This document shows positions 181-40,981 of a DNA stretch of 64,000 nucleotides, piece after piece (within the stretch, counting starts at the first letter, position 1; each line of letters opens with the position of its first letter). A model generated the notes under the pieces. The model saw nothing but the letters and a program-made list of their open reading frames with translations. It was not told the origin of the DNA and made no database searches. Source of the DNA: a virus; IMG/VR virus record IMGVR_UViG_3300030685_000003, positions 6,156 to 70,155 of that record; one strand, given 5' to 3'. The translations under genes were made by a program, and so were the position numbers.

Positions 181-263
181 CGGAAGATCAAGGATTTGAA
201 CCTTGGAGACCTTTCAGTCTTACCGATTAGCAATCGGCTGCATTACCGCTCTGCCAATCTTCC
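181..263 (-). tRNA. tRNA-Ser(GCT)
   Basis: Cloverleaf GGAAGAT/ATCTTCC-G, anticodon arm ccga-ttGCTaa-tcgg, long variable arm, GGTTCAAATCC T-loop. Confidence 0.92.
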
Positions 264-392
264 TTATAGGTAATCTTTAGTAAATTTTTTGAGCCATTGT
301 CTGAATGCTTTCTTAAACGAGATGTGCTTGATCTCTTTCTTAGATAACCATCAGACTCACATACTTTTGATCTTTCTCGTAATCTTCATCAT
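264..392 (-). CDS. small basic hypothetical protein (42 aa)
   Basis: ATG..TAA open with TGA=Gly: MMKITRKIKSMGVGWLSKKE... Confidence 0.45.
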
Positions 393-455
393 ACAATGGT
401 TAAGAATAAACATTGAAAACAGTCCCTCTGTGGCAGATGAAACCAGACAAATGAC

Positions 456-536
456 TGGGTTAGATAGGATTCGAACCTACAAGCCGGTAAAGGACTCCGT
501 CTACAGCGGAGCGGACCACCATTGCCCAACTAACCC
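456..536 (-). tRNA. tRNA-Tyr(GTA)
   Basis: GGGTTAG/CTAACCC-A acceptor, ctccg-ctGTAga-cggag, long variable arm, GTTCGAATCC. Confidence 0.9.
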
Positions 537-537
537 A

Positions 538-611
538 TGGAGCGATATATGGGACTTCAACCCATGATGCCTGGTTGGAAGCCAGACGTGTTAGCGCTAC
601 ACTAATACCGC
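538..611 (-). tRNA. tRNA-Gly(TCC), CCA encoded
   Basis: GCGGTAT/ATATCGC-T-CCA, tctgg-ctTCCaa-ccagg; T-loop variant TTGAAGT. Confidence 0.88.
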
Positions 612-620
612 ATATTATCT

Positions 621-693
621 TGGAGAATGAGGGAATCGAACCCTCTCCTTCTCGGTGCAAGCGAGATGTGCTAGCCATTGCCACTAACCCCCC
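621..693 (-). tRNA. tRNA-Ala(TGC)
   Basis: G-rich acceptor with G3-U70, tctcg-ctTGCac-cgaga, GGTTCGATTCC. Confidence 0.9.
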
Positions 694-697
694 ATAT

Positions 698-771
698 CGC
701 ATCCCCTAGGATTCGAACCTAGAACCCACGACTTAACAGGCCGTTGCTCTAACCATTAAAGCTAGGGATGC
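698..771 (-). tRNA. tRNA-Asn(GTT)
   Basis: GCATCCC/GGGATGC-G, acggc-ctGTTaa-gtcgt, GGTTCGAATCC. Confidence 0.92.
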
Positions 772-773
772 AT

Positions 774-846
774 AGTCACAGGCGAGGATCGAACTCGCGT
801 ACGCGGATTTGAAGTCCACACCACTGACCAACTGTGATACTGCGAC
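774..846 (-). tRNA. UGA-decoding tRNA, anticodon TCA, probably tRNA-Gly(UCA)
   Basis: GTCGCAG/CTGTGAC-T acceptor (G1-C72, U73), gtgga-ctTCAaa-tccgc, short variable loop, GTTCGATCC; TGA=Gly in the coding regions. Confidence 0.88.
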
Positions 847-851
847 ATACT

Positions 852-922
852 CATACTATCTAGGAATCGGACCTAGTCCTAGGACTTTGGAGATCCCTGT
901 GCTACCAGTACACCAATAGTAT
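852..922 (-). tRNA. tRNA-Trp(CCA)
   Basis: ATACTAT/ATAGTAT-G, gggat-ctCCAaa-gtcct; T-loop variant TCCGATT. Confidence 0.85.
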
Positions 923-927
923 ATAAT

Positions 928-998
928 CTCAGAGCCGAAGAATCGAACTTCTGTCCCCTGCTTCAAAGGCAGGTGTCATGCCACTAGACCATCTCTGA
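928..998 (-). tRNA. tRNA-Gln(TTG)
   Basis: TCAGAG/CTCTGA-G, cctgc-ctTTGaa-gcagg, GTTCGATTC. Confidence 0.88.
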
Positions 999-1099
999 AT
1001 ATTGAGGTTTCGTGTACCTAACAGAAACCCCTAAAGAATAGCATACAGCTTAGCCCACCGTATGAGAGACGTCGATAATCAACTAGACAGGGATAGCAT

Positions 1100-2491
1100 C
1101 TAATCTATTTGTTCGTATCTTTCAGAGTTGAGCGTCTTCAACATTACTCCAATAGGAGTCATATCTTCACCACCCAATAATCCCTTCATGATAGCTGGAG
1201 ATGCTCCAGAGACTAGTGCAACACCATTTGCATTATATGCTACAGGTGAGTTACCTTGCCTTCCATTTACATTCCAGTAAACAAGATTCGGCATTTGGTA
1301 ACCAAATTGTTCGTATTGCAATCTGATAGCCTCATGATTTGTTAGTCATCCTACATTAGAGTCGTTGAACTCCATGTCAGAGATAACCAATATATTGTCT
1401 GGCATATCAGCAGCTGTTAGATTAGAAGCTAGCGCTGTATTCAATACTAATTGAAACGCTGCTTGTAGATTTGTGTCAAATCACACAGGCCCAGCAATCT
1501 CTCTAAATCTTTGGCAAGGAGATCCTTGCAAGTATTGCATTCTAGGTTCTGATGTGAACGTGATGAATGCATCCTTAAATATAGACTTGTTTCTTTCCGC
1601 TAGATATACTCACAATGATATGGAAATGTCCATCGGAGTCAAGTTATTGTTACCATATGAGCTATTCATTGATCCAGATACATCTACCATAGGTAAGAAG
1701 GATTTTCCTTCAGGCACATAGTTAGGTAGGTTAGCCCACTGAGCATTGATAATAGTTGGATTTTCTCATTTATTATATGATTGATACAACTGATAAGGAA
1801 ACAATGTCCCAGCCTTGATTGCTAGCGGATCCTTTTCGATGAATTGATTGAATCTTTCCTCGTCGTGTCTAACAAATGCTTTCTTATATTTATGGAATGC
1901 TTGAGATGGAATCTTTTCGTATTCAATAAACGCCCATTGATTAGCAGACATTTGTTGCTCAACTACCTTAGTGTTTGCTACTAGGAATTTTCTGAATGCT
2001 TTTGGAGATAATTTGAGATGCTTTCTAAAGTACTCAAATATTTCGCCTTTTCTAGGCATCCATTTACATAACAATCCTATCTTACTTTCTTTTGTATGGT
2101 CAGTATCTGGTGAATGCATCCATTCAAGGATATATTCTAATGATGTATCAAAAAGATCATCCCATCTACCATATTCTGGCACAAATTTGTTGTATTTTTG
2201 AAGCTGTGCTTTTGATAAAGAATTCCAGATAGTTCTAAAGAATCTTCTTTCTCCAGCTCATCATCTGACATCTCTAGCCCAGAATAAACATCTGAACGCT
2301 AGCTTCTCATCTTCAACAAGTGCAGAGGTCCACATAGAAAGGATATCCTTTTCAGACATATTTCTAGAAGCTCCCGCTATGAAGAAAAGATCTACAACAG
2401 AGTGTAGAGAAGTTGAATTTGTTACTGCTCCATTGGCAGTTAATGAATCATGCTGTCTAGCAGCGTTAACGAATGGTGATTGTGAGATCAT
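1100..2491 (-). CDS. DUF2828-family helical + vWA domain protein (TROVE/Ro60-like architecture), 463 aa
   Basis: Three supplied fragments join with TGA=Gly; motifs LTANGA, WARDVRGGAGER, EYGRWDDL, KWMPR, YEKIPS, vWA MIDAS DVSGSM, SDMEF, VYWNV, VSGAS. Confidence 0.85.
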
Positions 2492-2506
2492 GGTGTATAT
2501 AGTTTT

Positions 2507-2583
2507 ACAGAACACAGTTTGCTGGATTTGGACCAGCTCGCTCCGAGGAGCTTCAACCAGTTTAGTTATGCTGTATGTGTTCT
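2507..2583 (-). ncRNA. Y-RNA-like array unit A
   Basis: AGAACAC/GTGTTCT-GT terminal stem, then atACAGCAtaac; internal hairpins including T-arm-like gctgg-tccaaat-ccagc. Confidence 0.7.
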
Positions 2584-2601: not shown

Positions 2602-2723
2602 ACGGGACGCATTTCTTAAGTGCTCTAACCAGACTGAGCTACCAACGCCTTGCGACGCTAGGTTGGATTTGAACCAACGACCACTGCTTTAATAGAGCGT
2701 AGAAGTTATGCTGTGAGCGTCCC
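2602..2723 (-). ncRNA. Y-RNA-like array unit B (YrlA-like permuted tRNA module)
   Basis: GGGACGC/GCGTCCC-GT stem, tcACAGCAtaac, then T-arm gttggTTCAAATccaac, acceptor-like stem closed by GCAA, D-arm tagctcagtctggttagagc. Confidence 0.82.
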
Positions 2724-2735
2724 TTATATTTATTA

Positions 2736-2851
2736 ACAGGACAGGATTTTAAGGCGTCCTAACCACTAGACTACGTGTGCCTTGCGACACATAACGGGAA
2801 TCGAACCCATGTCTCCTGCTTGAAGTGCAGAGTTTATGCTGTTACTGTCCT
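2736..2851 (-). ncRNA. Y-RNA-like array unit C (YrlA-like permuted tRNA module)
   Basis: AGGACAG/CTGTCCT-GT stem, taACAGCAtaaac, T-arm atgggTTCGATTcccgt, acceptor-like stem closed by GCAA, D-arm tagtctagtggttaggac. Confidence 0.82.
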
Positions 2852-3051: not shown

Positions 3052-4023
3052 CTAATCTAAATAGTAGAATGTATTTACTGCTGGGTACCAAGATTCTTTT
3101 ACTCATGGGGTACCAGTAACATATTTACCACTGATTTGTTTAGGTGTCATCATTCACTGACTGAAGTATACACATTTAAATAGATATCATTGTGATTTGA
3201 ATGCCTCTTCAACAGAACTAAATGCATAGAGATGAGTTCAAGGATAATAATTTGCTGGTTCTCTACTACAATCGCTATTTATTTTCCATTTCATTCATCC
3301 CCAATTATTGGCGAGATACCCACTAGCAGAAACAAAGTTTGCTCATAGATGGCTCTCTTTATATGACGATCATAACTGTAATTTGAATAGATCATATCAA
3401 GACCAAGTCTCTTGTGATTGTTTTTTTATCTTAAGAAACAATTGATCATTATGACATAGTGGAGATGTTCTTCAATTTATCCAAACTTCACAAACTTTAT
3501 TCATAAGTCTCAAGTCTAATCAGGTTAATATGGTCGTATAAACTGGCTTAGCACCTTTGATGTTTTGTAATCTAGACATATCAAAGTTAACTCATGGGCA
3601 ATTCTTCGGTTGGAAGTCTCAATGCCTCTTAATTTCCATTCAAGGATGTTCCTCATTGATTCGAGATATGATTGTTCTAATCATATTATATTGAGCCTCT
3701 GTTGGTAATACTCATGGTAGATTGAAATTTCAAACAACCTCAATCTGTATTGAGTCAAGATTAGCTTGTGCATTTCTAGTTCCTCATACAGCTATGTCCA
3801 AATCATTTACTTTCACAAAGTCTCAAGAACATCATACTATAAAGTGTGCTGGTATGTGCTTCATTTTTCAACTAGCAACCCGAGTTCAACTCATTGACTT
3901 CTCCATCTGCTTGGCAGATAAACAGTTTGGGGTACCAGTATTATGAATAATAATATACTTATATCACCTTACTATTGTACTGCTCCTGTTTGTAGGGCTG
4001 ACAGAGTTCCCTGTTCTAAACCC
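3052..4023 (-). CDS. N-acetylmuramoyl-L-alanine amidase (Amidase_2) + glucosaminidase/lysozyme-like domain, probably reached by -1 frameshift
   Basis: YIIIHNTG, AHFIVG, SIQIEVVGNF, PTEAQY, RHGDF..KNCPG; C-terminal KESHLG..NNWGGMK..FSSVEE; no in-frame ATG upstream of the first catalytic His. Confidence 0.8.
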
Positions 4024-4265
4024 GTACCTGTCGAAGTACCGTTTATAGCATCGAATAATTTACTGTCAATCCTCTGTATGTTTTCATCGTACGCATCAAT
4101 TTTTGCTTGTGCTGCATCTCTTATAGTAGTCTGTTCTAGTTTTAGGTTTACATTTTCAGCCTTATCAAGATACAATTGTTCAATAGGAGAGTTATGTCTG
4201 AAGAAAGAAACCAGTAACATGACGAATAAGAATCCAGCAATTCAATACGGAATATACTTTTTCAT
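3972..4265 (-). CDS. N-terminal transmembrane + coiled-coil protein (97 aa; zero-frame partner of the amidase)
   Basis: MKKYIPYGIAGFLFVMLLVSFF signal/TM; contains G_GGT_TTA near the 3' end. Confidence 0.75.
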
Positions 4266-4301
4266 GAAGTAGAATAAATTCTAAAGCCCATAAATAAGAC
4301 A

Positions 4302-5213
4302 CTATTTTTTTACCATCGAGTATGCTATACCCCAAGATAAACAAAAGCCTATAACTATAAGACTCATGTACGTCGGTATATGGAATCCAAAGATTCCTGA
4401 TATCATTTTTGCTCATATGAAGAACAAAATAATAATAACTGCATGACTAAGGTATTTAACTTGGTTACCTACTGCCTCCAATATAAAGTATAGAGATCTT
4501 AGACCAAGTATTGCAAATATATTGGAAGAGAATAGGATGAACTTATCTGACGTGATTGCTAATACAGCTGGTATAGAATCAAAAGCGAACATAACGTCTG
4601 CTATCTCAATAACTACCAAAGTCAAAAACAACGCAGTCATAAATAGTTTTCAGTTTTCTCTTACAAAGAATTTGTGTCAATCTAATTTTGGGTAAACAGG
4701 TAGTATTTTTTTTAGAAATGTAGCTATCTTCCCTTTAGAATAATCAACTTCGTCTTGTTCTCAACCATCTGACATTAGCTCTTTGAGCATTTTAATAGCA
4801 GACCAAATAACAATAAGACCGAAGATAACTAACACAACTGGTCAAAGTGACATTAGCCACGCCCCAGCAAAGATAAAACACATTCTTAATACGATTGCAC
4901 CTAGTATTCCTCGGTATAAAATTCTATGTCTATACCTTTGAGGTATAACGAATGATGAGAATATTGCCATCATAACGAATAGATTATCAACCGACAGTGA
5001 TTTCTCTAATAAGTAACCACTAAAGAAATTCATTGAAGCGTCCAGACCCATTGAAAAATATATATACACATTGAATCCTACAGCCAAAGCTATCCACATA
5101 CAGCTTTCTATAGCTGCTTGTTTCAAAGATATTGCTTTATCTTCCTTATGCCTTAGATGATCAAATGTCAACGACGCTGCAAGAACCACAAACATAACAA
5201 TGTAATGTCACAT
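4302..5213 (-). CDS. terC: TerC/Alx family membrane protein (303 aa)
   Basis: GYLLEKSLSVDNLFV, HRILY(W)GILGAIVLR, IEIADVMFAFDSIPAV, SNIFAILGLRSLYF. Confidence 0.93.
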
Positions 5214-5503
5214 TATCTTTTTGCCGACAATAAAAAGCTAATGTAAGACACTAAGATAACGGCACATATGATGAATGATAACATCCCGCTAAACATAAAG
5301 AATACCAATAATGGAGCCAATACTAAGAATGATCTAATAGCAGTATTATTGTTTTGATCCCATCTTACGATAAATCCATTGATTAAGTTAACCAAGAATC
5401 TAGTGAAAGGATTTCTCTTTGTGGCACCAAGCCATAGTTGGAATTTGTTTGCGTAAATTTGTCATAAATGTTTTTCAATAAATTTGAGTATAGTATTAAA
5501 CAT
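5213..5503 (-). CDS. small membrane protein (96 aa)
   Basis: Open with TGA=Gly; hydrophobic C-terminal helices; stop overlaps the terC start. Confidence 0.7.
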
Positions 5504-5531
5504 TCCTAAATAGGGGGTAAGAATAAAAGAA

Positions 5532-5554
5532 AAGGGTGGTGGTTAGCCACCCTA
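5532..5554 (-). terminator. intrinsic terminator after terD
   Basis: agggtgg..ccaccct hairpin followed by a T-rich tract on the minus strand. Confidence 0.65.
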
Positions 5555-5559
5555 ACCTA

Positions 5560-6087
5560 CTAAAGACTTTCAGCTACTTGTGAAATGTCTCCGTCAATGT
5601 AGTCTCCCATTGCTGTGAAAGCATAGTTGTCACCTGAGTCAACAACCTTACCTACTACTACAGCAGTATGAGCACCACCTTGAGCCAATACATAAGTTGC
5701 AAGAACTTCGTTTGTTTCTTGATTGTATACAGTTGCCTTAGCATTTGCAACATCAGAGAACTTAACGTTTCCTGTGTAAATATTTACACAGATGAAGTAC
5801 TCACCATCACCAGATTTAGTGGCGTCCATTTTAACGAATTCATCGTCTCCATCTCCTGCACCAGTTCTATTGTCTTCTGACAATTCGACCCCAGTAATAG
5901 CAGTTCTAGCATTGTAGTATGCTACTTTCTTTGCTCCATTTGCTTTTTCAACAATGAACAAATCAAGATCTGCAGTAATTCCTTCTTTAACGTCCCAAGA
6001 GAGACCTACTCTAATTTTTGAGATAGATGAACCATCTGCTTTTTTGAGGTCTAGAGTTTGACCTTTAACCAAGTTGAGTGCTTTCAT
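5560..6087 (-). CDS. terD: TerD family protein (175 aa)
   Basis: LNLVKGQ, VGLSWD, DLDLF, DNRTGAGDGDDE, F.AMG. Confidence 0.92.
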   Translation of the reverse strand: MKALNLVKGQTLDLKKADGSSISKIRVGLSWDVKEGITADLDLFIVEKANGAKKVAYYNARTAITGVELSEDNRTGAGDGDDEFVKMDATKSGDGEYFICVNIYTGNVKFSDVANAKATVYNQETNEVLATYVLAQGGAHTAVVVGKVVDSGDNYAFTAMGDYIDGDISQVAESL

Positions 6088-6118
6088 GTGTGTGTAGAAA
6101 AATAGGATAAAAAAGATT

Positions 6119-6191
6119 AGGTTGTGTATCGGATTCGAACCGACATCTTCCGCTTACTACGCGGATGTTTTTCCATTAAACTAATACATCC
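6119..6191 (-). tRNA. atypical tRNA-like gene, anticodon AGT (Thr-type), poorly paired acceptor stem
   Basis: D-arm tagtttaatggaaaaac, tccgc-gtAGTaa-gcgga, gtcggTTCGAATccgat; acceptor has mismatches. Confidence 0.6.
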
Positions 6192-7254: not shown

Positions 7255-9896
7255 GATTTTTTAGATTTAAATTTCATATAGTTGATAGTCTGGTCAATCT
7301 CATCAATCAATCAAGATGTTCATGTCATTTTAGTCTCTAGTATTCTTCTTAAGTTTAGTAGAGATTGACGTGTCCCTTCTTCGCACTCATCAATATCTGA
7401 TGGGATCCCAGAAGTATTTAAGAATGCCTTGAATATATACCATAGTTGTGGCTTCTCCTCTATATACTTGAAGTCTACGTAACACGCCTGTCAAGGTCTA
7501 GCCTTATCAAAATGTTCGTTGATTGTCTTGAATGTAGATATTATATCCATTTTGAAAGCGTCTGAGAACCTAGACATATCAAGATTTATATCGACATAAC
7601 AACCACCATTACAGAATTCTACCAAGCCCCTATGGACATTGAAGTGATTGAACAATACGATATATTTATTTGCGATATCGTCTGAATCATCTCTAGATAA
7701 TTGATCGAACATAGCATCAACAAGATACCCTTCATAATCTCATAATCACATTTTTCTAGCTATAGCTATAATGAATCAATAGCATTGTGATGTTCTATAG
7801 GTATCTCAATAATCTTTCCCAGAGGAATCAATCTTTATAACTAATGCGTCCTGTACAGAAAGCCATTCATCAACTAATCAATTGATCCCTGTCTCGTCCT
7901 TAAATATTTCTAGGACATTTCCAAGAATATTCCCCGGTAGTTCCTTCATGGCTTCTAGTCATCATGCTAACATTTTTCTTTTAGCACAAACGAGACAGAT
8001 ATTTCTTGAGACGGCTGCGGCATCATGGAATTTTGTTTGTCCATCAAATATAAACTGTCAAGAGATTGGGATACTAACAGTACTTAGTGTCTGCGTTCCC
8101 TTCATAATATTCTGTCAGTCGAATGCTGTTCTTACTAGCGATGTTACCGCAGCAGAATTTTTCAGGGCATCATTTCTAAATTCTTCTATACTGATAGGAA
8201 CGCTATGTCTTAATGAGGATTCCAAAACAAATGGAGATGATGCGGCGGGGACACTGTAATGCATACCGAACATCTTATCTAGCAATAATCTTTTGATAGT
8301 TGTTTTACCTGAGGCTTTCATTCCTTCGATAAACATACCTGGGATCTGTAGACGTCTGTCTCTAAAGAATTTTGAGTACACCAATCATATTCACATTAAG
8401 AATAGGGGATAGATAACCTTAGGCTCATATATTCTAAATAAGATATTTACTATCTCATCTCGTGACATATTAGTTTTCCCTGGTTCGTCTATCTGATCTT
8501 TGTTGGAATCAACTGTCCCTACATCACAATACAATCCGTCCATTATATACTTACCTCATGTCCTTACTAGGAATCTCTTCCCAAATATTTCTTGAAGTCA
8601 TAGACTTTCAGTATGCTCATACTCAGTACTTGTATTAAGGATATATTGTCTCAGCAATTTGATTCACTGAACATTGGTGATACAATCTACTCACTGTTCC
8701 ATGATCATCTTACTAAATTCTCATGCAGCACTGAACGGCTTAAGTGTGACAATGTTAATACCTTTGTTACTATCAATCTTTACAATTATTTTGCTACCGT
8801 CTGAACCTCAATCCGGACGTTTATTTATCTTAAAGAATCCTATTGGCTCTACGATTCCTGCTACTAATTTCTCTACATTTTCTCAGTTCTTCCCGTTAGA
8901 GATGAGGACCATTTCTTTTCTTACCTTATCTACTCTGATCTGAGTAGATGCTCAGTATCCTATGATATATGTATCCTTGTCGATAATCTTGATATTGTTT
9001 GAGTCTGCATTGATTGTAGCTAGTCTGTCTTGATATTGCTTGATAGCCTCATCACATTTCAAATCATAGTTAGATTTGAACCAGTGGATCAAATCCGGAA
9101 GCGAAGATATATTGAGAGCTTGTTTGGCTATTGTGTAGGCATTACCTCTAGGCTTATCCAAGGTAGTATCTGCTGTAAAACAGTTTACCGTGTTTCTAAA
9201 CTTATGATAAGCATATCCATTTACTTCTCAAGTCTTCGTATGAATTGATCAGTCTGGCAGAGTAGTGAACTTCCCTCATGATACTTTCTCTAATACATCA
9301 CTGGCGTCGATAGACTCGATCTCTTCGAAGATCTGTTTGATGTCTGGCCATTGAATGTATTTTTCCTTATCTTTACCATACTTCCATAGGATCTCATCGT
9401 ACCCTATAAACATAGAAGTAAGATCCGTAAGCGAGTATTGAGCATCGAAAGTTTTGATAGATATTTCTTGATCTCCTGTATTGTCTGCCCAGTATTGAGT
9501 ACTTGGCATAGGGAATCCAGTAGGTATGATCGCTCAGATCCTCTTGGCAATATTTGATGAAATCTTTTTGATCGCATCTTGATTTCCTACCTTGCTGTAC
9601 TCCTTATCTAATTTAATAAAGATATATTTTCCCTTAGGTGAGGTTATTATCATAGATGGAGCAAACAATCCCTCTCGAGTCTTATTGGCCCCGTCGATGA
9701 AAAAAGATAGTGTGTAAATACTATCTGAAACTATGCTAAAGAATATATCTTTCTTTTTCGCTGGAGAGTTCTGTATTTCTATATCATCTATGAGGCATGG
9801 ATCTTGCTTTCATTTAGCAACTCAAGCCTGCATAGAATAAATATTTGATCACGGAAACCCGTCCAAAAAAGATTTGATTTTATCTGCCTCAATCAT
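7236..9896 (-). CDS. primase-helicase (N-terminal primase-like, C-terminal P-loop NTPase), about 886 aa
   Basis: Four supplied fragments share one frame; Walker A FIEGMKASGKTT, Walker B-like ISIEEF; sits in the replication module. Confidence 0.72.
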
Positions 9897-32499: not shown

Positions 32500-34137
32500 A
32501 TGGGTAAAGAAATCACGTTTTGAGAAAATTGAAGGAAAAAAATCCTTAATGGAATAAAAAAAGTATATGATGTGGTAAGAATTACTATGTGACCTAAGGG
32601 GAAAAACGTATTATTGCAGAGAAATAACGTACCATTGATCACAAATGATGGTATAAGTGTGGCAAAACTTATAGAATTGAATGATAATGCTGAGAAAATG
32701 GGTCTAAGATTCATCCAAGAAGCCGCTTGAAAGACCAATTTAGATGCCTGAGATGGTACTACATTGACTACTGTACTGTCTTATGCCATGGCAAATGAAG
32801 GTATGAAGTATGTAAATAACGGAATCAATCCATTTACGCTATCGGAGCAGCTTTTAAACACCCAAAAATTTGTATTAGAGGGACTAAAATGAATGACTTT
32901 GCCAGTTACTTCGAAGAAGTTGATCCAAGAAGTTGCTACAATCTCTGCTCAGAGCGAGGAAATCGGTAAAGTTATCGCCGATACTATAGATAAAGTAGGT
33001 GAAAACGGGGTTATTACCGTAGAAGAAGGTAAAAATCTGGGTATAACTACTGAAATTACTATAGGATATAAGTTCAATCAGGGGTATACATCACCATATT
33101 TCGTTACAGATCCTAATAAAATGGAGTGTATTATAGAGAATGCATACATCTTAATTACCGATAAGACCATATCTAACCCGAAAGATATAGAAAAAGCACT
33201 CAATGATATTACCATGACAGGTTCTAAAGATATAGTCATTATTGCTGAGGATGTTATAGGTGATGCATTGACTATGATTGTAAGGGCAAAGAACCATAGA
33301 GGCACACCAATAAATATCGTAGTTGTTAAGGCTCCAAGTTACGGAGACGTTAAGAAAGAAATGCTATGTGACATTGCTGCCATCACTGGTGGTAAAGTCT
33401 TCTCAGATGATTTTTGAATAAGTTTCGACCAATCATCTTTGGACTATATGTGACGTTGTGATAAATTTATTTGTACCAAACAATCAAGTATCATAGTTTG
33501 AGGTAAATGATCAAAAAAAGATATAGATTCTAGAATAGCTTCTGTAAAAGCGTTGCTCAAAAACAAGGATGATGATTTTGATAGATTCGATCTTGATAGA
33601 AGAGTTGCTGCTCTTGCCGGATGAGTTGCTGTTATCAGAGTTGGAGCTGGTACTGAAATGGAAATGCAGAATAAAAGACTTAAGGTCGAGGATGCGTTGA
33701 ATGCCACTAAGGCAGCTATCCAAGAAGGTATTGTTGCATGAGGATGAACGACTCTTGTAAATCTAAGCGAGTATATACTTAGTCAGTGATTCACATACGT
33801 TTCTGAAGAAGAAAAAATTGCCGACAAAATTATCGCAGATGCATTACTCTATCCGATCAAACAAATCTGTTTGAATGCTGGATATAGTGGTGATGTGGCA
33901 GTAGATAAAATAATAAAGCATAAATCCAATAGCTATGGATTCAACGCAAAGACTGGTGAGTACTGAGATATGCTTAGGATGTGAATCATAGACCCGGCTA
34001 AAGTTTTGAGATGTGCTATCGAAAATGCTGTGTCTGCCGCTATGATGCTCCTTACACTTGATGCTATCGTTGTTGATGAAAAAATTAAGGACCAATACTC
34101 AGTCCAAACAGGATTTGATTTATCTGACGCTATGTAA
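32500..34137 (+). CDS. groEL: chaperonin GroEL (545 aa)
   Basis: [79 protein letters not shown]. Confidence 0.97.
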
Positions 34138-39610: not shown

Positions 39611-40981
39611 ATGGCAAATTTAAATCTTAGATCGGCCGCTACCGAGCTTAATAACAAAACTATCAATATCTTCAAATATGGATGGGGATATGCTGGTAAA
39701 ACAATGGCAATGTTTATGTACAATCTTATTGACCTAAACGCTGAAACCATTGATTGGAAAAACATTAAACCAAAGCCATTCAAAGTAGAAATGAAAGAAA
39801 ATCTTTTAACAGATCAAAATCTTGGAAACAAGGCAACTTGGCAAGAAATCAATGTTAAAGATCAAGTATTGGTAATTAACTCAGTATGTACTACAGCTAA
39901 AACAATCGTTGTTGCTGCAACTGGTCCAGTTAACTACAAAAGAGGTCAATGGTTCTTCAATCCACAAAAACAAGAATCATACCAAATCAATACAGATGTT
40001 TCTGATACAACAATTGGAGCAACTACAGTTACTCTTACTTGTGTAGATATCGGATCAGCTGCTGCAAACGCTAACCTTAGAATTGCTGGTTACTCTAAAC
40101 CTTACAAAAACAATGAGGGTAATGCATTCGTTGCAGATCAAGTACAAGAAATGTACAACATCTTCACTGGATTCAATATGGCGATCAATCTTGATCAAAA
40201 TGAAATGAATCAAAACTCAATCTTCAAAGAAGATACTAAGGCATATATTTCACAAAAGACTGCTGAAGCATCAAGAACAATGCTTATCAACTCTTGGAGA
40301 CAATACTATACTGGTGAAAGAGGTGCTAACTCTATAGGAGGTACAACTACTCCAACTCTTGGAGGTTTGAACTACTTCTTGAAGAATGTATCAAACATTG
40401 CTGCTATAAATGTTGGAACTGGAGCAAGTGGTGCAGTAGGTGGTGAAATCGTAGTAAATGGTTCAACTTATGATGAAAAGAGACAATCTTTCCTTTCTGC
40501 TTTGAACTCTATCTTGATCTCTCCATTGCCAAATATCAAAGGAGCTAACAAACTTATCTTCCTTTGTACAACTTCTTTCATGAGAGAAATTGAAGAAATG
40601 TTCTTCCCTAAATTAACTAACTTCGACAAGATCAGAGTTATGGATTTGGAAGTAGAAACTATCAAATTTGCTAATGCAACTGTTTCATTCATCGTTGATG
40701 AAAGTCTTGATGATTTGAACTTCACTAAGACATCTGCTGGAGTATACGGAATGCAAAAGATTGGTTACATAATCCCTATTGATTACTGTAAAACAGTCAT
40801 GAAAGCAAACGATGTTTATACTAAGGATGGACAATCAGTTCAAGCTCTTGGTATGGGTAAATTCTTCATCTTGCCACAAACAGCTGAAGAAAGTCTTGAC
40901 TTTAGATTGTACTCAAACGCATCTGCGATGTGGGGAGCAATCAGTTCAGGGGCATACAGAAAGATTACATTCGGATGGTAA
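39611..40981 (+). CDS. major capsid protein (456 aa)
   Basis: Position after the scaffold, strongly biased codons, YNIFTGF..YTGERG..TLGGLNYF pattern, strong terminator downstream. Confidence 0.82.
   Translation: MANLNLRSAATELNNKTINIFKYGWGYAGKTMAMFMYNLIDLNAETIDWKNIKPKPFKVEMKENLLTDQNLGNKATWQEINVKDQVLVINSVCTTAKTIVVAATGPVNYKRGQWFFNPQKQESYQINTDVSDTTIGATTVTLTCVDIGSAAANANLRIAGYSKPYKNNEGNAFVADQVQEMYNIFTGFNMAINLDQNEMNQNSIFKEDTKAYISQKTAEASRTMLINSWRQYYTGERGANSIGGTTTPTLGGLNYFLKNVSNIAAINVGTGASGAVGGEIVVNGSTYDEKRQSFLSALNSILISPLPNIKGANKLIFLCTTSFMREIEEMFFPKLTNFDKIRVMDLEVETIKFANATVSFIVDESLDDLNFTKTSAGVYGMQKIGYIIPIDYCKTVMKANDVYTKDGQSVQALGMGKFFILPQTAEESLDFRLYSNASAMWGAISSGAYRKITFGW

What the first reader, a model, noticed from the sequence alone, without database searches (positions are those of the whole stretch)
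774..846. Phage-encoded UGA-reading tRNA with non-standard Gly identity elements
Seen: a 73-nt cloverleaf with UCA anticodon, G1-C72 and U73 (Gly-like), but U2-A71 and C3-G70 instead of the C2-G71/G3-C70 of the neighbouring tRNA-Gly(UCC). It has an atypical D-stem (UCAC/GUGG) and lies next to tRNA-Trp(CCA). Inference: the phage supplements the codon that defines its host's code. The altered acceptor stem may show how the host GlyRS recognises this tRNA or where it originated.
Basis: partly seen in the sequence, partly recalled or inferred. Interest (0 to 1): 0.7.

Follow-up and report, generated by a model that had tools for sequence, protein, structure and literature searches.

The report
Phage UGA-reading tRNA, odd acceptor stem

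Summary
Window 774-846 (minus strand) holds an intact 73-nt cloverleaf tRNA with anticodon UCA, G1-C72, U2-A71, C3-G70, G4·U69, U73 and D stem UCAC/GUGG. It lies 4 nt from tRNA-Trp(CCA) in a tight cluster of eight tRNAs.

The 70-kb contig is a tailed phage that reads TGA as glycine. TGA falls on invariant GroEL glycines (99 of 160 homologue cells are G, none is W) and makes up 35% of glycine codons.

The tRNA most likely supplies Gly at UGA (about 0.7), charged by the host GlyRS. This is inferred from the coding, not shown. The tRNA fails the published sequence rule for glycine-accepting tRNA(UCA), and its determinants fit Cys about as well. Two other TGA-recoded phage contigs carry tRNA(UCA) with the canonical C2-G71/G3-C70, so this acceptor stem is the outlier. 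All its changes are compensated, which argues for a working helix.

A phage-borne tRNA-Gly(UCA) has already been reported (patesciphage RSA-ATP1). Only the altered identity pairs and the setting are new. The cluster sits between an RNA-binding protein gene and RNA ligase plus T4-type PNKP genes.

I could not reach host (Absconditabacteria/Gracilibacteria) tRNAs for comparison.

The parts
774..846 (-). tRNA with anticodon UCA. 73 nt, 7/5 cloverleaf, 4-nt variable loop. G1-C72, U2-A71, C3-G70, G4·U69, U73; D stem UCAC/GUGG; loop CUUCAAA; no encoded CCA.
   Evidence: ARAGORN; Rfam tRNA 53.4 bits, E 1.4e-9; cloverleaf is the MFE fold; identical in L183 and in contigs of runs X7 and X9.
851..923 (-). 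tRNA-Trp(CCA), 4 nt upstream of the UCA tRNA. A1-U72, G73, 5-bp anticodon stem.
   Evidence: ARAGORN; Rfam 51.1 bits.
538..611 (-). tRNA-Gly(UCC) with canonical G1-C72, C2-G71, G3-C70, G4·U69, U73 and an encoded CCA.
   Evidence: ARAGORN; Rfam 57.4 bits.
181..999 (-). Cluster of eight tRNA genes on one strand. 5'->3' order: Gln-UUG, Trp-CCA, UCA, Asn-GUU, Ala-UGC, Gly-UCC, Tyr-GUA, then Ser-GCU after a 191-nt gap. Spacers among the first seven are 0-8 nt.
   Evidence: ARAGORN coordinates; all reach the Rfam cut-off.
1100..2515 (-). DUF2828 + DUF7788 protein (PHROG 850, 'RNA-binding protein'), directly upstream of the tRNA cluster on the same strand. It has 6 in-frame TGA.
   Evidence: Pfam PF25043 2.3e-40 and PF11443 2e-22; phrog_850 5.7e-130; 40% identical homologue beside the tRNA(UCA) of G779.
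2616..2686 (-). Weak Y-RNA-like (YrlA) match with a tRNA-like module, upstream of the DUF2828 gene. It is below the family cut-off.
   Evidence: Rfam RF02553 30.9 bits against a cut-off of 69, E 0.0013; overlapping weak tRNA match at 2654-2780, 24.5 bits.
32500..34137 (+). GroEL-type chaperonin gene with 16 in-frame TGA. This is the main evidence that TGA means glycine.
   Evidence: PDB 4v4o_A E 2.6e-135, with 10 of 16 TGA opposite G. Against ten Patescibacteria GroELs: 99 of 160 cells G, 0 W, 1 C; 7 columns are 10/10 G.
4302..5213 (-). TerC-family membrane protein gene with 6 in-frame TGA and one CGA. Used for the code test and as a host clue.
   Evidence: Pfam TerC 3.4e-46; the best named homologue is from a Candidatus Absconditabacterales MAG, 56% identity; alignment A1.
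39611..40981 (+). Major-capsid-like gene, the only long ORF without a TGA (0 of 456 codons; all 33 Gly are GGN).
   Evidence: Codon counts. The nearest Atlas clusters are SU10_MCP-type, score 0.98; this is a lead, not an alignment. No Pfam or PHROG match.

Best explanation
This is a working phage tRNA that reads UGA and most likely inserts glycine.

Proposed mechanism:
- It is transcribed with seven neighbouring tRNAs from the minus strand and cut out by host RNase P and 3' processing.
- The host enzyme adds CCA, because none is encoded.
- The host glycyl-tRNA synthetase charges it. The phage has no synthetase among the ORFs scanned.
- It then decodes the 2.7% of phage codons that are UGA, about a third of all glycine codons. 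This tops up, or replaces if the host copy is damaged, the host's own tRNA-Gly(UCA).
- The adjacent tRNA-Trp(CCA) covers UGG, the other codon of the same box.

Shown here: the gene, its fold, its reproducibility, TGA = Gly in this genome, and the phage nature of the contig.

Inferred: expression, charging with glycine, use of host GlyRS, and the benefit to the phage.

The acceptor stem has lost C2-G71 and G3-C70 but keeps G1-C72, U73, a purine-4/pyrimidine-69 pair and C35. If the tRNA is glycylated, the host enzyme must lean on those remaining elements.
For: Evidence that the tRNA is intact:
- Rfam 53.4 bits, with U8, A14, G18, G19, A21, U33, U54-U55-C56, G53-C61 and G15/C48 all in place.
- The loop has A36-A37-A38, as in tRNAs that read U-starting codons (my recall).
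- All seven acceptor pairs are formed.
- Against the two other phage tRNA(UCA) and the phage's own tRNA-Gly(UCC), 2:71 and 3:70 changed on both sides. The cloverleaf holds in 97.6% of 83 cells.
- The gene is identical in L183 and in contigs of runs X7 and X9.

Evidence that TGA means Gly:
- The longest ORF is 460 aa under code 11 and 2,876 aa with TGA as sense.
- In 33 ORFs (14,231 codons): TGA 2.68%, TGG 0.91%, GGN 4.86%.
- GroEL: 10 of 16 TGA lie opposite G in 4v4o_A. Against ten homologues 99 of 160 cells are G, 0 W, 1 C.
- TerC: 4 of 6 TGA fall on conserved G.
- PNKP: the glycine of the DxDGT motif is a TGA.

A UGA reader that inserted anything else would damage these proteins.

Other support:
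- U73 and G1-C72 fit bacterial Gly, and G73 (Trp) is absent (PMC9976931 passages).
- Purine-4/pyrimidine-69, which matters for L. plantarum GlyRS, is kept (PMC10464925 passages).
- Two other TGA-recoded IMG/VR contigs carry tRNA(UCA) with a canonical Gly acceptor stem. G778 shares the UCAC D stem and GUAC variable loop. G779 shares the DUF2828, PNKP and RNA ligase genes beside its tRNA(UCA) and tRNA-Trp.
- None of the 30 ORFs scanned against Pfam or PHROGs is a synthetase.
- A phage tRNA-Gly-sup(TCA) is published for a code-25 patesciphage.
Against: - It lacks C2-G71 and G3-C70. C2-G71 belongs to the identity set in E. coli, T. thermophilus and yeast (PMC9976931 passage).
- A G2-C71 swap cut kcat to one fifth in L. 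plantarum GlyRS, and C36A also lowered charging (PMC10464925 passages).
- It has U10 rather than the G10 of the Gly consensus.
- Shulgina and Eddy call a tRNA(UCA) a glycine acceptor only with G1:C72, C2:G71, G3:C70 and U73 (PMC8629427 Methods passage). This tRNA fails that rule.
- By the published lists it meets 4 of 6 bacterial Cys determinants (U73, C3-G70, C35, A36) against 3 of 6 for Gly.
- Overall identity to G778's tRNA (51 of 73) is no higher than to unrelated tRNAs (50-54 of 73). Kinship with canonical tRNA-Gly(UCA) therefore rests on a few shared features.
- No host tRNA or GlyRS could be compared.
- There are no charging or expression data.
Confidence: 0.7

Rival explanations
1. The gene makes a tRNA that is charged poorly or not at all: a decaying or idle copy that the phage no longer needs because the host supplies tRNA-Gly(UCA).
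For: Two Gly identity pairs are gone, and U10 replaces G10. A close relative (L184) differs at acceptor positions 2, 3 and 4 while 47 of 49 other positions are the same. That could be drift in an unconstrained stem. Host SR1 tRNA(UCA) genes are reported as nearly identical between genomes (PMC3812714 passage).
Against: All acceptor changes are compensated, so the helix is kept. Every universal tertiary nucleotide is intact, and the Rfam score ranks 4th of 9 tRNAs. The gene sits inside a cluster with 0-8 nt spacers. It is identical in the other contigs that cover it.
Confidence: 0.1
2. It is charged with cysteine by CysRS, so UGA becomes partly Cys in infected cells.
For: U73, C3-G70, C35 and A36 are four of the six bacterial Cys determinants listed in PMC9976931. 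The best partial BLAST matches in 401 Patescibacteria genomes include tRNA-Cys(GCA), 84% over positions 30-66. One Patescibacteria genome (G109) has a clearly Cys-like tRNA(UCA).
Against: G34 and G2-C71 are missing. The D arm of the Patescibacteria tRNA-Cys (GCCA/AGGC with A13·A22) is not shared. Only 1 of 160 cells at GroEL TGA columns is C. Cys at the GDGTT, AGGG and DxDGT glycines should be harmful. The T-arm likeness is shared with tRNA-Phe, Met and Thr.
Confidence: 0.06
3. It is a tryptophan-inserting opal suppressor of the kind found in code-4 phages and mycoplasmas.
For: The anticodon is UCA and it lies beside tRNA-Trp(CCA). Public gene calls translated this contig with TGA = W (P0001).
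Against: It has U73 and G1-C72 instead of G73 and A/G1-U72; the rule is in a PMC8629427 passage, and the phage's own tRNA-Trp has A1-U72 and G73. No cell of 160 at GroEL TGA columns is W. TGA plus TGG would make Trp 3.6% of residues.
Confidence: 0.02

Closest known systems
tRNA-Gly(UCA) of SR1/Absconditabacteria and Gracilibacteria (genetic code 25; Campbell et al. 2013, not held here, known to me through PMC4695839, PMC8629427 and PMC3812714)
   Same: UCA anticodon, ordinary 7/5 cloverleaf, G1-C72, U73, and use in a genome where TGA falls on conserved glycines. The D and anticodon arms are unlike ordinary tRNA-Gly, as the review passage says of the SR1 tRNA.
   Different: The SR1 tRNA is said to keep the major Gly identity elements, and host genes are nearly identical between genomes. 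This one has U2-A71 and C3-G70 and is phage-borne. No direct alignment was possible: I reached no genome of that clade.
tRNA-Gly-sup(TCA) of patesciphage RSA-ATP1 (10.1101/2024.03.08.584096; passages read)
   Same: A tRNA with anticodon TCA carried by a code-25 phage of an Absconditicoccaceae-type host, together with a few other tRNAs. It is read there as helping translation of phage and host proteins.
   Different: RSA-ATP1 is a different phage (39 kb, four tRNAs: Met, Arg, Leu and the suppressor). The passages give no acceptor-stem detail, and I could not see its sequence. No match to my tRNA or capsid protein appeared in the GenBank phage set. This phage has nine tRNAs and an RNA-repair gene set.
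tRNA(UCA) genes of two other TGA-recoded IMG/VR contigs (G778 = L174/L262, G779 = L171/L263)
   Same: UCA anticodon, G1-C72, U73, purine-4/pyrimidine-69 and loop CUUCAAA. G778 shares the UCAC D stem and GUAC variable loop. G779 shares the neighbouring DUF2828, PNKP, RNA ligase and tRNA-Trp genes.
   Different: Both have canonical C2-G71 and G3-C70.
Suppressor tRNAs of stop-codon-recoded phages that infect standard-code hosts (code 4 and 15; 10.1101/2021.08.26.457843, passages)
   Same: A phage-encoded tRNA that reads a canonical stop codon.
   Different: In those phages the tRNA changes the code during infection, and only 26-71% of genes are recoded. Here 32 of 33 long ORFs use TGA, and the host is inferred to read UGA the same way, so the tRNA supplements rather than switches.
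Phage T4 tRNA genes with Pnkp and RNA ligase repair of nuclease-cut tRNA (my recall of the T4/PrrC system)
   Same: A T4-type PNKP (1ltq, E 6.1e-38, full length) and an RNA ligase (PF09414) lie next to a tRNA gene cluster.
   Different: The ligase is of the PF09414 family, not shown to be T4 Rnl1-like. No host anticodon nuclease is known for this system. A DUF2828/PHROG 850 protein and a weak Y-RNA-like element are added.

Membership tests
Bacterial glycine-accepting tRNA (GlyRS substrate) | Discriminator U73 | tested here: met
   U73; determinant per PMC9976931 passage.
Bacterial glycine-accepting tRNA (GlyRS substrate) | G1-C72 | tested here: met
   G1-C72; the only acceptor pair in the tRNA-Gly consensus.
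Bacterial glycine-accepting tRNA (GlyRS substrate) | C2-G71 | tested here: not met
   U2-A71. The other three Gly-type tRNAs aligned have C-G.
Bacterial glycine-accepting tRNA (GlyRS substrate) | G3-C70 | tested here: not met
   C3-G70. The other three aligned have G-C.
Bacterial glycine-accepting tRNA (GlyRS substrate) | Anticodon C35 and C36 | tested here: inconclusive
   C35 is present. Position 36 is A, as it must be in any UGA reader, so code-25 GlyRS must tolerate A36.
Bacterial glycine-accepting tRNA (GlyRS substrate) | Purine 4 / pyrimidine 69 (L. plantarum GlyRS) | tested here: met
   G4·U69; PMC10464925 passage.
Bacterial glycine-accepting tRNA (GlyRS substrate) | Actual charging with glycine | not testable with these tools
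   Needs an aminoacylation assay or mass spectrometry.
Code-25 tRNA-Gly(UCA) as called by the rule of Shulgina and Eddy 2021 | UCA anticodon with G1:C72, C2:G71, G3:C70 and U73 | tested here: not met
   Two of the four acceptor features fail. It is therefore not filed as a member by sequence. It is read as working like one because TGA = Gly in this genome.
Bacterial tRNA-Cys | U73, G2-C71, C3-G70, G34, C35, A36 | tested here: not met
   U73, C3-G70, C35 and A36 are present. G2-C71 and G34 are absent.
tRNA-Trp(UCA) of code-4 organisms and phages | G73, A/G1-U72 | tested here: not met
   U73 and G1-C72; rule from a PMC8629427 passage.
tRNA-Sec | Long variable arm, extended acceptor/T helix, G73 | tested here: not met
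   7/5 helices, 4-nt variable loop, U73. ARAGORN's 'SeC' label follows from the anticodon alone.
Phage using genetic code 25 | In-frame TGA in most genes, aligned to glycine in homologues | tested here: met
   32 of 33 long ORFs contain TGA. GroEL 99 of 160 cells G, 0 W. TerC and PNKP motifs.

The most novel reading that the evidence does not exclude
The missing pairs are an adaptation, not drift. The tRNA would still be glycylated through G1-C72, U73, R4-Y69 and C35. Having lost G71 and the G3-C70 pair, it would be invisible to host enzymes that pick out tRNA-Gly by its acceptor stem.

The published precedent for such an enzyme is the TacT acetyltransferase toxin, which keys on U73 plus G71 (PMC9976931 passage).

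Together with the neighbouring RNA ligase, T4-type PNKP and PHROG 850 RNA-binding protein, the cluster would form an island that keeps UGA and other codons readable while the host attacks its own tRNAs during infection.
Probability: 0.1. Interest if true: 0.7.

Novelty: new variant of a known kind. Interest (0 to 1): 0.45.

Why it matters
Code 25 depends on GlyRS accepting a tRNA whose anticodon breaks one of its own identity rules (A36).

A natural, apparently selected tRNA(UCA) that also lacks C2-G71 and G3-C70 is a ready-made test. It can show which elements the GlyRS of these uncultured bacteria really reads, and how far a stop-codon reassignment can loosen synthetase recognition.

It also shows that rule-based calling of 'glycine' tRNA(UCA) can miss real cases.

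In addition, public gene calls for this phage used TGA = Trp, which puts a wrong residue at about 2.7% of positions.

The tRNA cluster with RNA-repair genes in a phage of candidate-phyla bacteria suggests that fights over tRNA also occur in these hosts.

Tried and rejected
- The search for related loci with the GroEL protein in genome contigs found nothing. The same tool with the terminase in viral contigs found nothing.
Only 7 of the 120 loci hold a tRNA(tca), all in contigs without a TGA-sense signal.
- One of these (L112) gave handle G001. Its class sample had 30 pattern matches in 401 genomes, and ARAGORN over all 269 fetched loci confirms tRNA(tca) at only 4 of those match sites (L121, L128, L129, L137).
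- Its phylum sample (401 genomes) was searched three times:
  - GroEL: 351 of 401 matched at 42-49% identity, and none of the 150 listed rows had TGA inside.
  - Pattern: 53 of 401 matched, with no tRNA(tca) besides G001 by ARAGORN on the fetched loci.
  - BLAST of the tRNA: 186 of 401 matched at E<=1; the best hits were tRNA-Phe, Cys, Met, Thr and Ala, and none had UCA.
- Ten genomes with split GroEL matches were checked. The tRNA pattern gave nothing in G476, G505, G509, G548 and G565. GroEL stop counts in G565, G676, G476, G700 and G744 showed no code-25 signal.
- My pattern required A38 and a common T loop, so it may have missed real genes. The code-25 clade may not have been in the samples at all. 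I therefore claim nothing about host tRNAs.
- G549 is flagged unpublished.

**Other searches that led nowhere.**
- The GenBank phage set gave no match to 14 kb of the window, to the tRNA or to the capsid-like protein.
- A viral contigs pattern with this tRNA's own ...GAC-U end gave 5 stretches, none a tRNA(UCA).
- A wider ...C-U pattern gave 13 stretches, with tRNA(tca) only in L174 and L180.
- An anticodon-arm pattern gave 5 stretches, of which one is an unrelated tRNA(UCA) with A73 (L269).
- The window's own record may be left out of these scans.

**Weak or uninformative results.**
- Overall identity does not single out a tRNA family.
- The promoter and terminator scan found no more sites than in shuffled sequence.
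- The PDB sequence search gave nothing for the DUF2828 protein or the terminase.
- The ORFs of L184 were uninformative.
- No RNA holder is listed among the sequencing runs, so nothing can be said about expression.

**Considered and set aside.**
- Sec identity: the shape is wrong.
- Ala mischarging through G4·U69: from recall, this is reported only for human AlaRS, and the phage's canonical tRNA-Gly(UCC) has the same pair.
- Glu-like acceptor (G1-C72, U2-A71, missing residue 47): from recall, and the anticodon is wrong for GluRS.

**Literature.**
- Campbell et al. 2013 is not held.
The tRNA tables of PMC8629427, 10.1101/2021.08.26.457843 and 10.1101/2024.03.08.584096 may already list tRNA(UCA) variants like this one.
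- In the searches, and in the passages read, I found no report of a phage tRNA(UCA) with altered 2:71 and 3:70.
I did not use the look-up of encoding contigs, which is stated to be closed.
Full report
**What is there.** ARAGORN finds nine tRNA genes in the window, eight of them in one minus-strand cluster at 181-999. All nine reach the Rfam tRNA cut-off.

The gene at 774-846 has anticodon UCA and scores 53.4 bits (E 1.4e-9). Its features, read:
- Acceptor stem G1-C72, U2-A71, C3-G70, G4·U69, C5-G68, A6-U67, G7-C66; discriminator U73.
- D stem UCAC/GUGG with a 9-nt D loop.
- Anticodon stem GUGGA/UCCGC and loop CUUCAAA.
- 4-nt variable loop GUAC.
- T arm GCGAG-UUCGAUC-CUCGC.

All universal tertiary nucleotides are present. 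The minimum-energy fold is the cloverleaf. ARAGORN's label 'SeC' reflects only the anticodon, because the shape is an ordinary 7/5 tRNA.

tRNA-Trp(CCA), with A1-U72 and G73, lies 4 nt upstream. tRNA-Gly(UCC), with C2-G71, G3-C70, U73 and an encoded CCA, lies 163 nt downstream.

The gene is reproducible:
- A metagenome contig (L183) is 99.97% identical over 3,010 nt.
- Contigs of two runs not flagged as the source cover the gene without a difference.
- All holders are labelled peat metagenome and may be one campaign.

**What the genome is.** The window is most of a single 70,155-base record. It encodes:
- a terminase large subunit, a portal, a DNA helicase and a RecT-like protein (PHROGs);
- an amidase, TerC and TerD (Pfam);
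- glycosyltransferases;
- a GroEL;
- a protein whose nearest Atlas clusters are SU10-type major capsid proteins (a lead only).

It is a tailed phage. It has no near relative in the GenBank phage set.

**How the genome is read.** With TGA as a stop, the longest ORF is 460 aa. With TGA as sense it is 2,876 aa. Freeing TAG or TAA does not do this.

In 33 long ORFs (14,231 codons), TGA is 2.68% of codons, TGG 0.91% and GGN 4.86%. Glycine would be 7.5% if TGA = Gly, whereas tryptophan would be an implausible 3.6% if TGA = Trp.

The direct tests are these:
- **GroEL.** The gene has 16 in-frame TGA. Ten of them lie opposite glycine in Thermus cpn60 (4v4o_A), including the GP.G, GDGTT, AGGVAV and AGGG motifs. 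Against ten Patescibacteria GroELs, 99 of 160 cells at these columns are G, none is W and one is C. Seven columns are G in all ten.
- **TerC.** Four of six TGA fall on conserved glycines.
- **PNKP.** The glycine of the HAD motif DxDGT is a TGA.
- **G779 homologues.** In three proteins shared with another recoded phage contig (G779), 7 of 22 aligned TGA face G, 2 face TGA, and none faces W or C.

This is genetic code 25.

TGA occurs in 32 of 33 long ORFs. That matches what Borges et al. report for code-25 phages of code-25 hosts (passages). The best named TerC homologue is from a Candidatus Absconditabacterales MAG at 56% identity. CGA and CGG are rare, at 16 and 3.5 per 10,000 codons, as published for that clade. 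The host is thus inferred, not shown, to be a code-25 patescibacterium.

**What the tRNA most likely does.** No other UGA reader is encoded, and none of the 30 ORFs scanned is a synthetase. A UGA decoder that inserted anything but glycine would corrupt invariant glycines in the phage's own proteins.

The tRNA has U73 and G1-C72, as bacterial tRNA-Gly does, and lacks the G73 of tRNA-Trp. The most likely reading (about 0.7) has these steps:
- It is made with its seven neighbours.
- It receives CCA from the host.
- Host GlyRS glycylates it.
- It supplies the roughly one third of glycine codons that are UGA (381 of 1,073).

The capsid-like gene is the one long ORF that avoids TGA altogether: 0 of 456 codons, with all 33 Gly as GGN. 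This hints that UGA decoding is the weaker route, so extra tRNA would help. That step is inference.

**Why the identity is not settled.**
- The identity set of GlyRS in E. coli, T. thermophilus and yeast includes C2-G71, and G3-C70 matters in yeast and archaea (PMC9976931 passage).
- In L. plantarum GlyRS a G2-C71 swap lowers kcat five-fold, and C36A lowers charging (PMC10464925 passages).
- Shulgina and Eddy accept a tRNA(UCA) as a glycine acceptor only with G1:C72, C2:G71, G3:C70 and U73. This tRNA fails that rule.
- By the published determinant lists it fits bacterial Cys (U73, C3-G70, C35, A36) about as well as Gly.

I therefore do not file it as a tRNA-Gly by sequence. I say only that it most likely works as one.

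**Relatives.** Pattern scans found three informative relatives.
- **G778** is a 15.8-kb IMG/VR contig that is TGA-recoded. Its longest ORF rises from 272 to 686 aa, and TGA is 2.2% of codons. Its tRNA(UCA) has the same UCAC D stem, GUAC variable loop and U8-A9, but a canonical GCG...CGC-U acceptor stem.
- **G779** is a 49-kb IMG/VR contig with in-frame TGA facing our G or TGA. Its tRNA(UCA) has a canonical acceptor stem, with tRNA-Trp(CCA) nearby. It also encodes homologues of our DUF2828 protein (40% identity), PNKP (48%) and RNA ligase (34%).
- **L184** is a metagenome contig end holding the 5' 53 nt of a tRNA. It is identical to ours at 47 of 49 positions from 5 to 53, but its acceptor stem starts GCAC where ours starts GUCG.

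In the four-way alignment, 2:71 is C-G in three sequences and U-A only here. 3:70 is G-C in three and C-G only here. Both are changed on both sides.

The acceptor stem is thus the fast-changing part, and this gene is the outlier. The helix is nevertheless kept, which argues against a dead gene. A caveat applies: overall identity to G778's tRNA (51 of 73) is no better than to unrelated tRNAs.

**Surroundings.** On the same strand the cluster is preceded by a DUF2828/DUF7788 protein (PHROG 850 'RNA-binding protein'). A weak Y-RNA-like, tRNA-like element lies upstream of that gene, below the family cut-off.

Just outside the window, an RNA ligase follows at G000 4883-6130 (PF09414). After it comes a full-length T4-type polynucleotide kinase-phosphatase at G000 4006-4878 (1ltq, E 6.1e-38).

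From recall, this gene pair repairs nuclease-cut tRNA in T4. The same set sits beside the tRNA(UCA) of G779. A tRNA supply-and-repair island is a fair description. That it answers a host tRNA-directed defence is a hypothesis.

**Comparison with what is known.**
- Code-25 phages are published.
- A code-25 patesciphage carrying tRNA-Gly-sup(TCA) is published and claimed there as the first.
- The SR1 host tRNA is described as keeping the Gly identity elements and as nearly identical between genomes.

What I did not find in the searches, or in the passages read, is a UGA-reading tRNA of this system with both identity pairs replaced. Supplements were closed and may hold such cases.

**Limits.**
- Charging, expression and host identity are inferred.

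**Verdict.** This is a real, intact, phage-borne UGA decoder in a code-25 phage. It is a new variant of a known kind and of moderate interest.

Noticed in passing
window 39611-40981 (+): The capsid-like gene is the only one of 33 long ORFs with no TGA: 0 of 456 codons, and all 33 glycines are GGN. Elsewhere TGA is 35% of glycine codons. This suggests UGA is avoided where expression is highest.
   Followed up: partly
window 4302-5213 (-); proteins P0001, P0004, P0006, P0007, P0009: The public protein that matches the window's TerC (P0001) carries W at every TGA. Four homologues show the same W-for-G pattern (P0007 against the NCBI version P0003). Code-25 DNA has therefore been translated with code 4 in public protein sets.
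   Followed up: partly
window 4302-5213 (-), codon 101 (CGA): The single CGA of TerC sits in the conserved LY(Y/F)GILGA motif, where 12 of 14 homologues have Y and 2 have F. Arginine would be odd there. This fits the predicted CGA/CGG = Trp reassignment of Absconditabacteria (PMC8629427), but it is one data point.
   Followed up: partly
G000 4006-6130 (just upstream of the window; locus L264) and window 1100-2515: A T4-type PNKP, a PF09414 RNA ligase and a DUF2828/DUF7788 (PHROG 850) protein flank the tRNA cluster. Homologues of all three lie beside tRNA(UCA) and tRNA-Trp in IMG/VR record G779.
   Followed up: partly
window 2616-2780 (-): A weak YrlA (Y-RNA-like) match (30.9 bits, below the cut-off) overlaps a weak tRNA match with a long insert. 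It lies upstream of the DUF2828 gene and may be a tRNA-mimic RNA partner of that protein.
   Followed up: no
window 6119-6191 (-): A lone tRNA-Thr with anticodon AGU (A34), which is unusual for bacteria. Its acceptor stem shows two non-standard pairs in the Rfam alignment.
   Followed up: no
L129 (G109), L121 (G001), L128 (G147), L137 (G021): Four of 401 genomes of one Patescibacteria class carry tRNA(UCA) genes, although the surrounding loci show no TGA-sense signal. Three are Gly-like: one canonical, two with U3-A70. One (G109) is Cys-like, with a GGC... acceptor stem, A13·A22 and U73. These may be unrecognised UGA decoding or suppressors.
   Followed up: partly
L073 (Streptococcus sp. contig), 596-666: A tRNA with a canonical Gly acceptor stem but anticodon UCA sits inside an ordinary tRNA cluster of a standard-code bacterium. 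It is either a natural glycine opal suppressor or a sequencing error.
   Followed up: no
L269 (229-kb GC-rich IMG/VR contig), 9090-9164 (-): Another phage tRNA(UCA) has the same first four acceptor pairs on the 5' side (G1-C72, U2-A71, C3-G70, G4-C69) but A73. Its identity and code are unknown.
   Followed up: no
window 32500-34137 (+): The phage encodes its own full-length GroEL. It is 42-49% identical to Patescibacteria GroELs, with no closer relative in the 401 genomes searched.
   Followed up: partly
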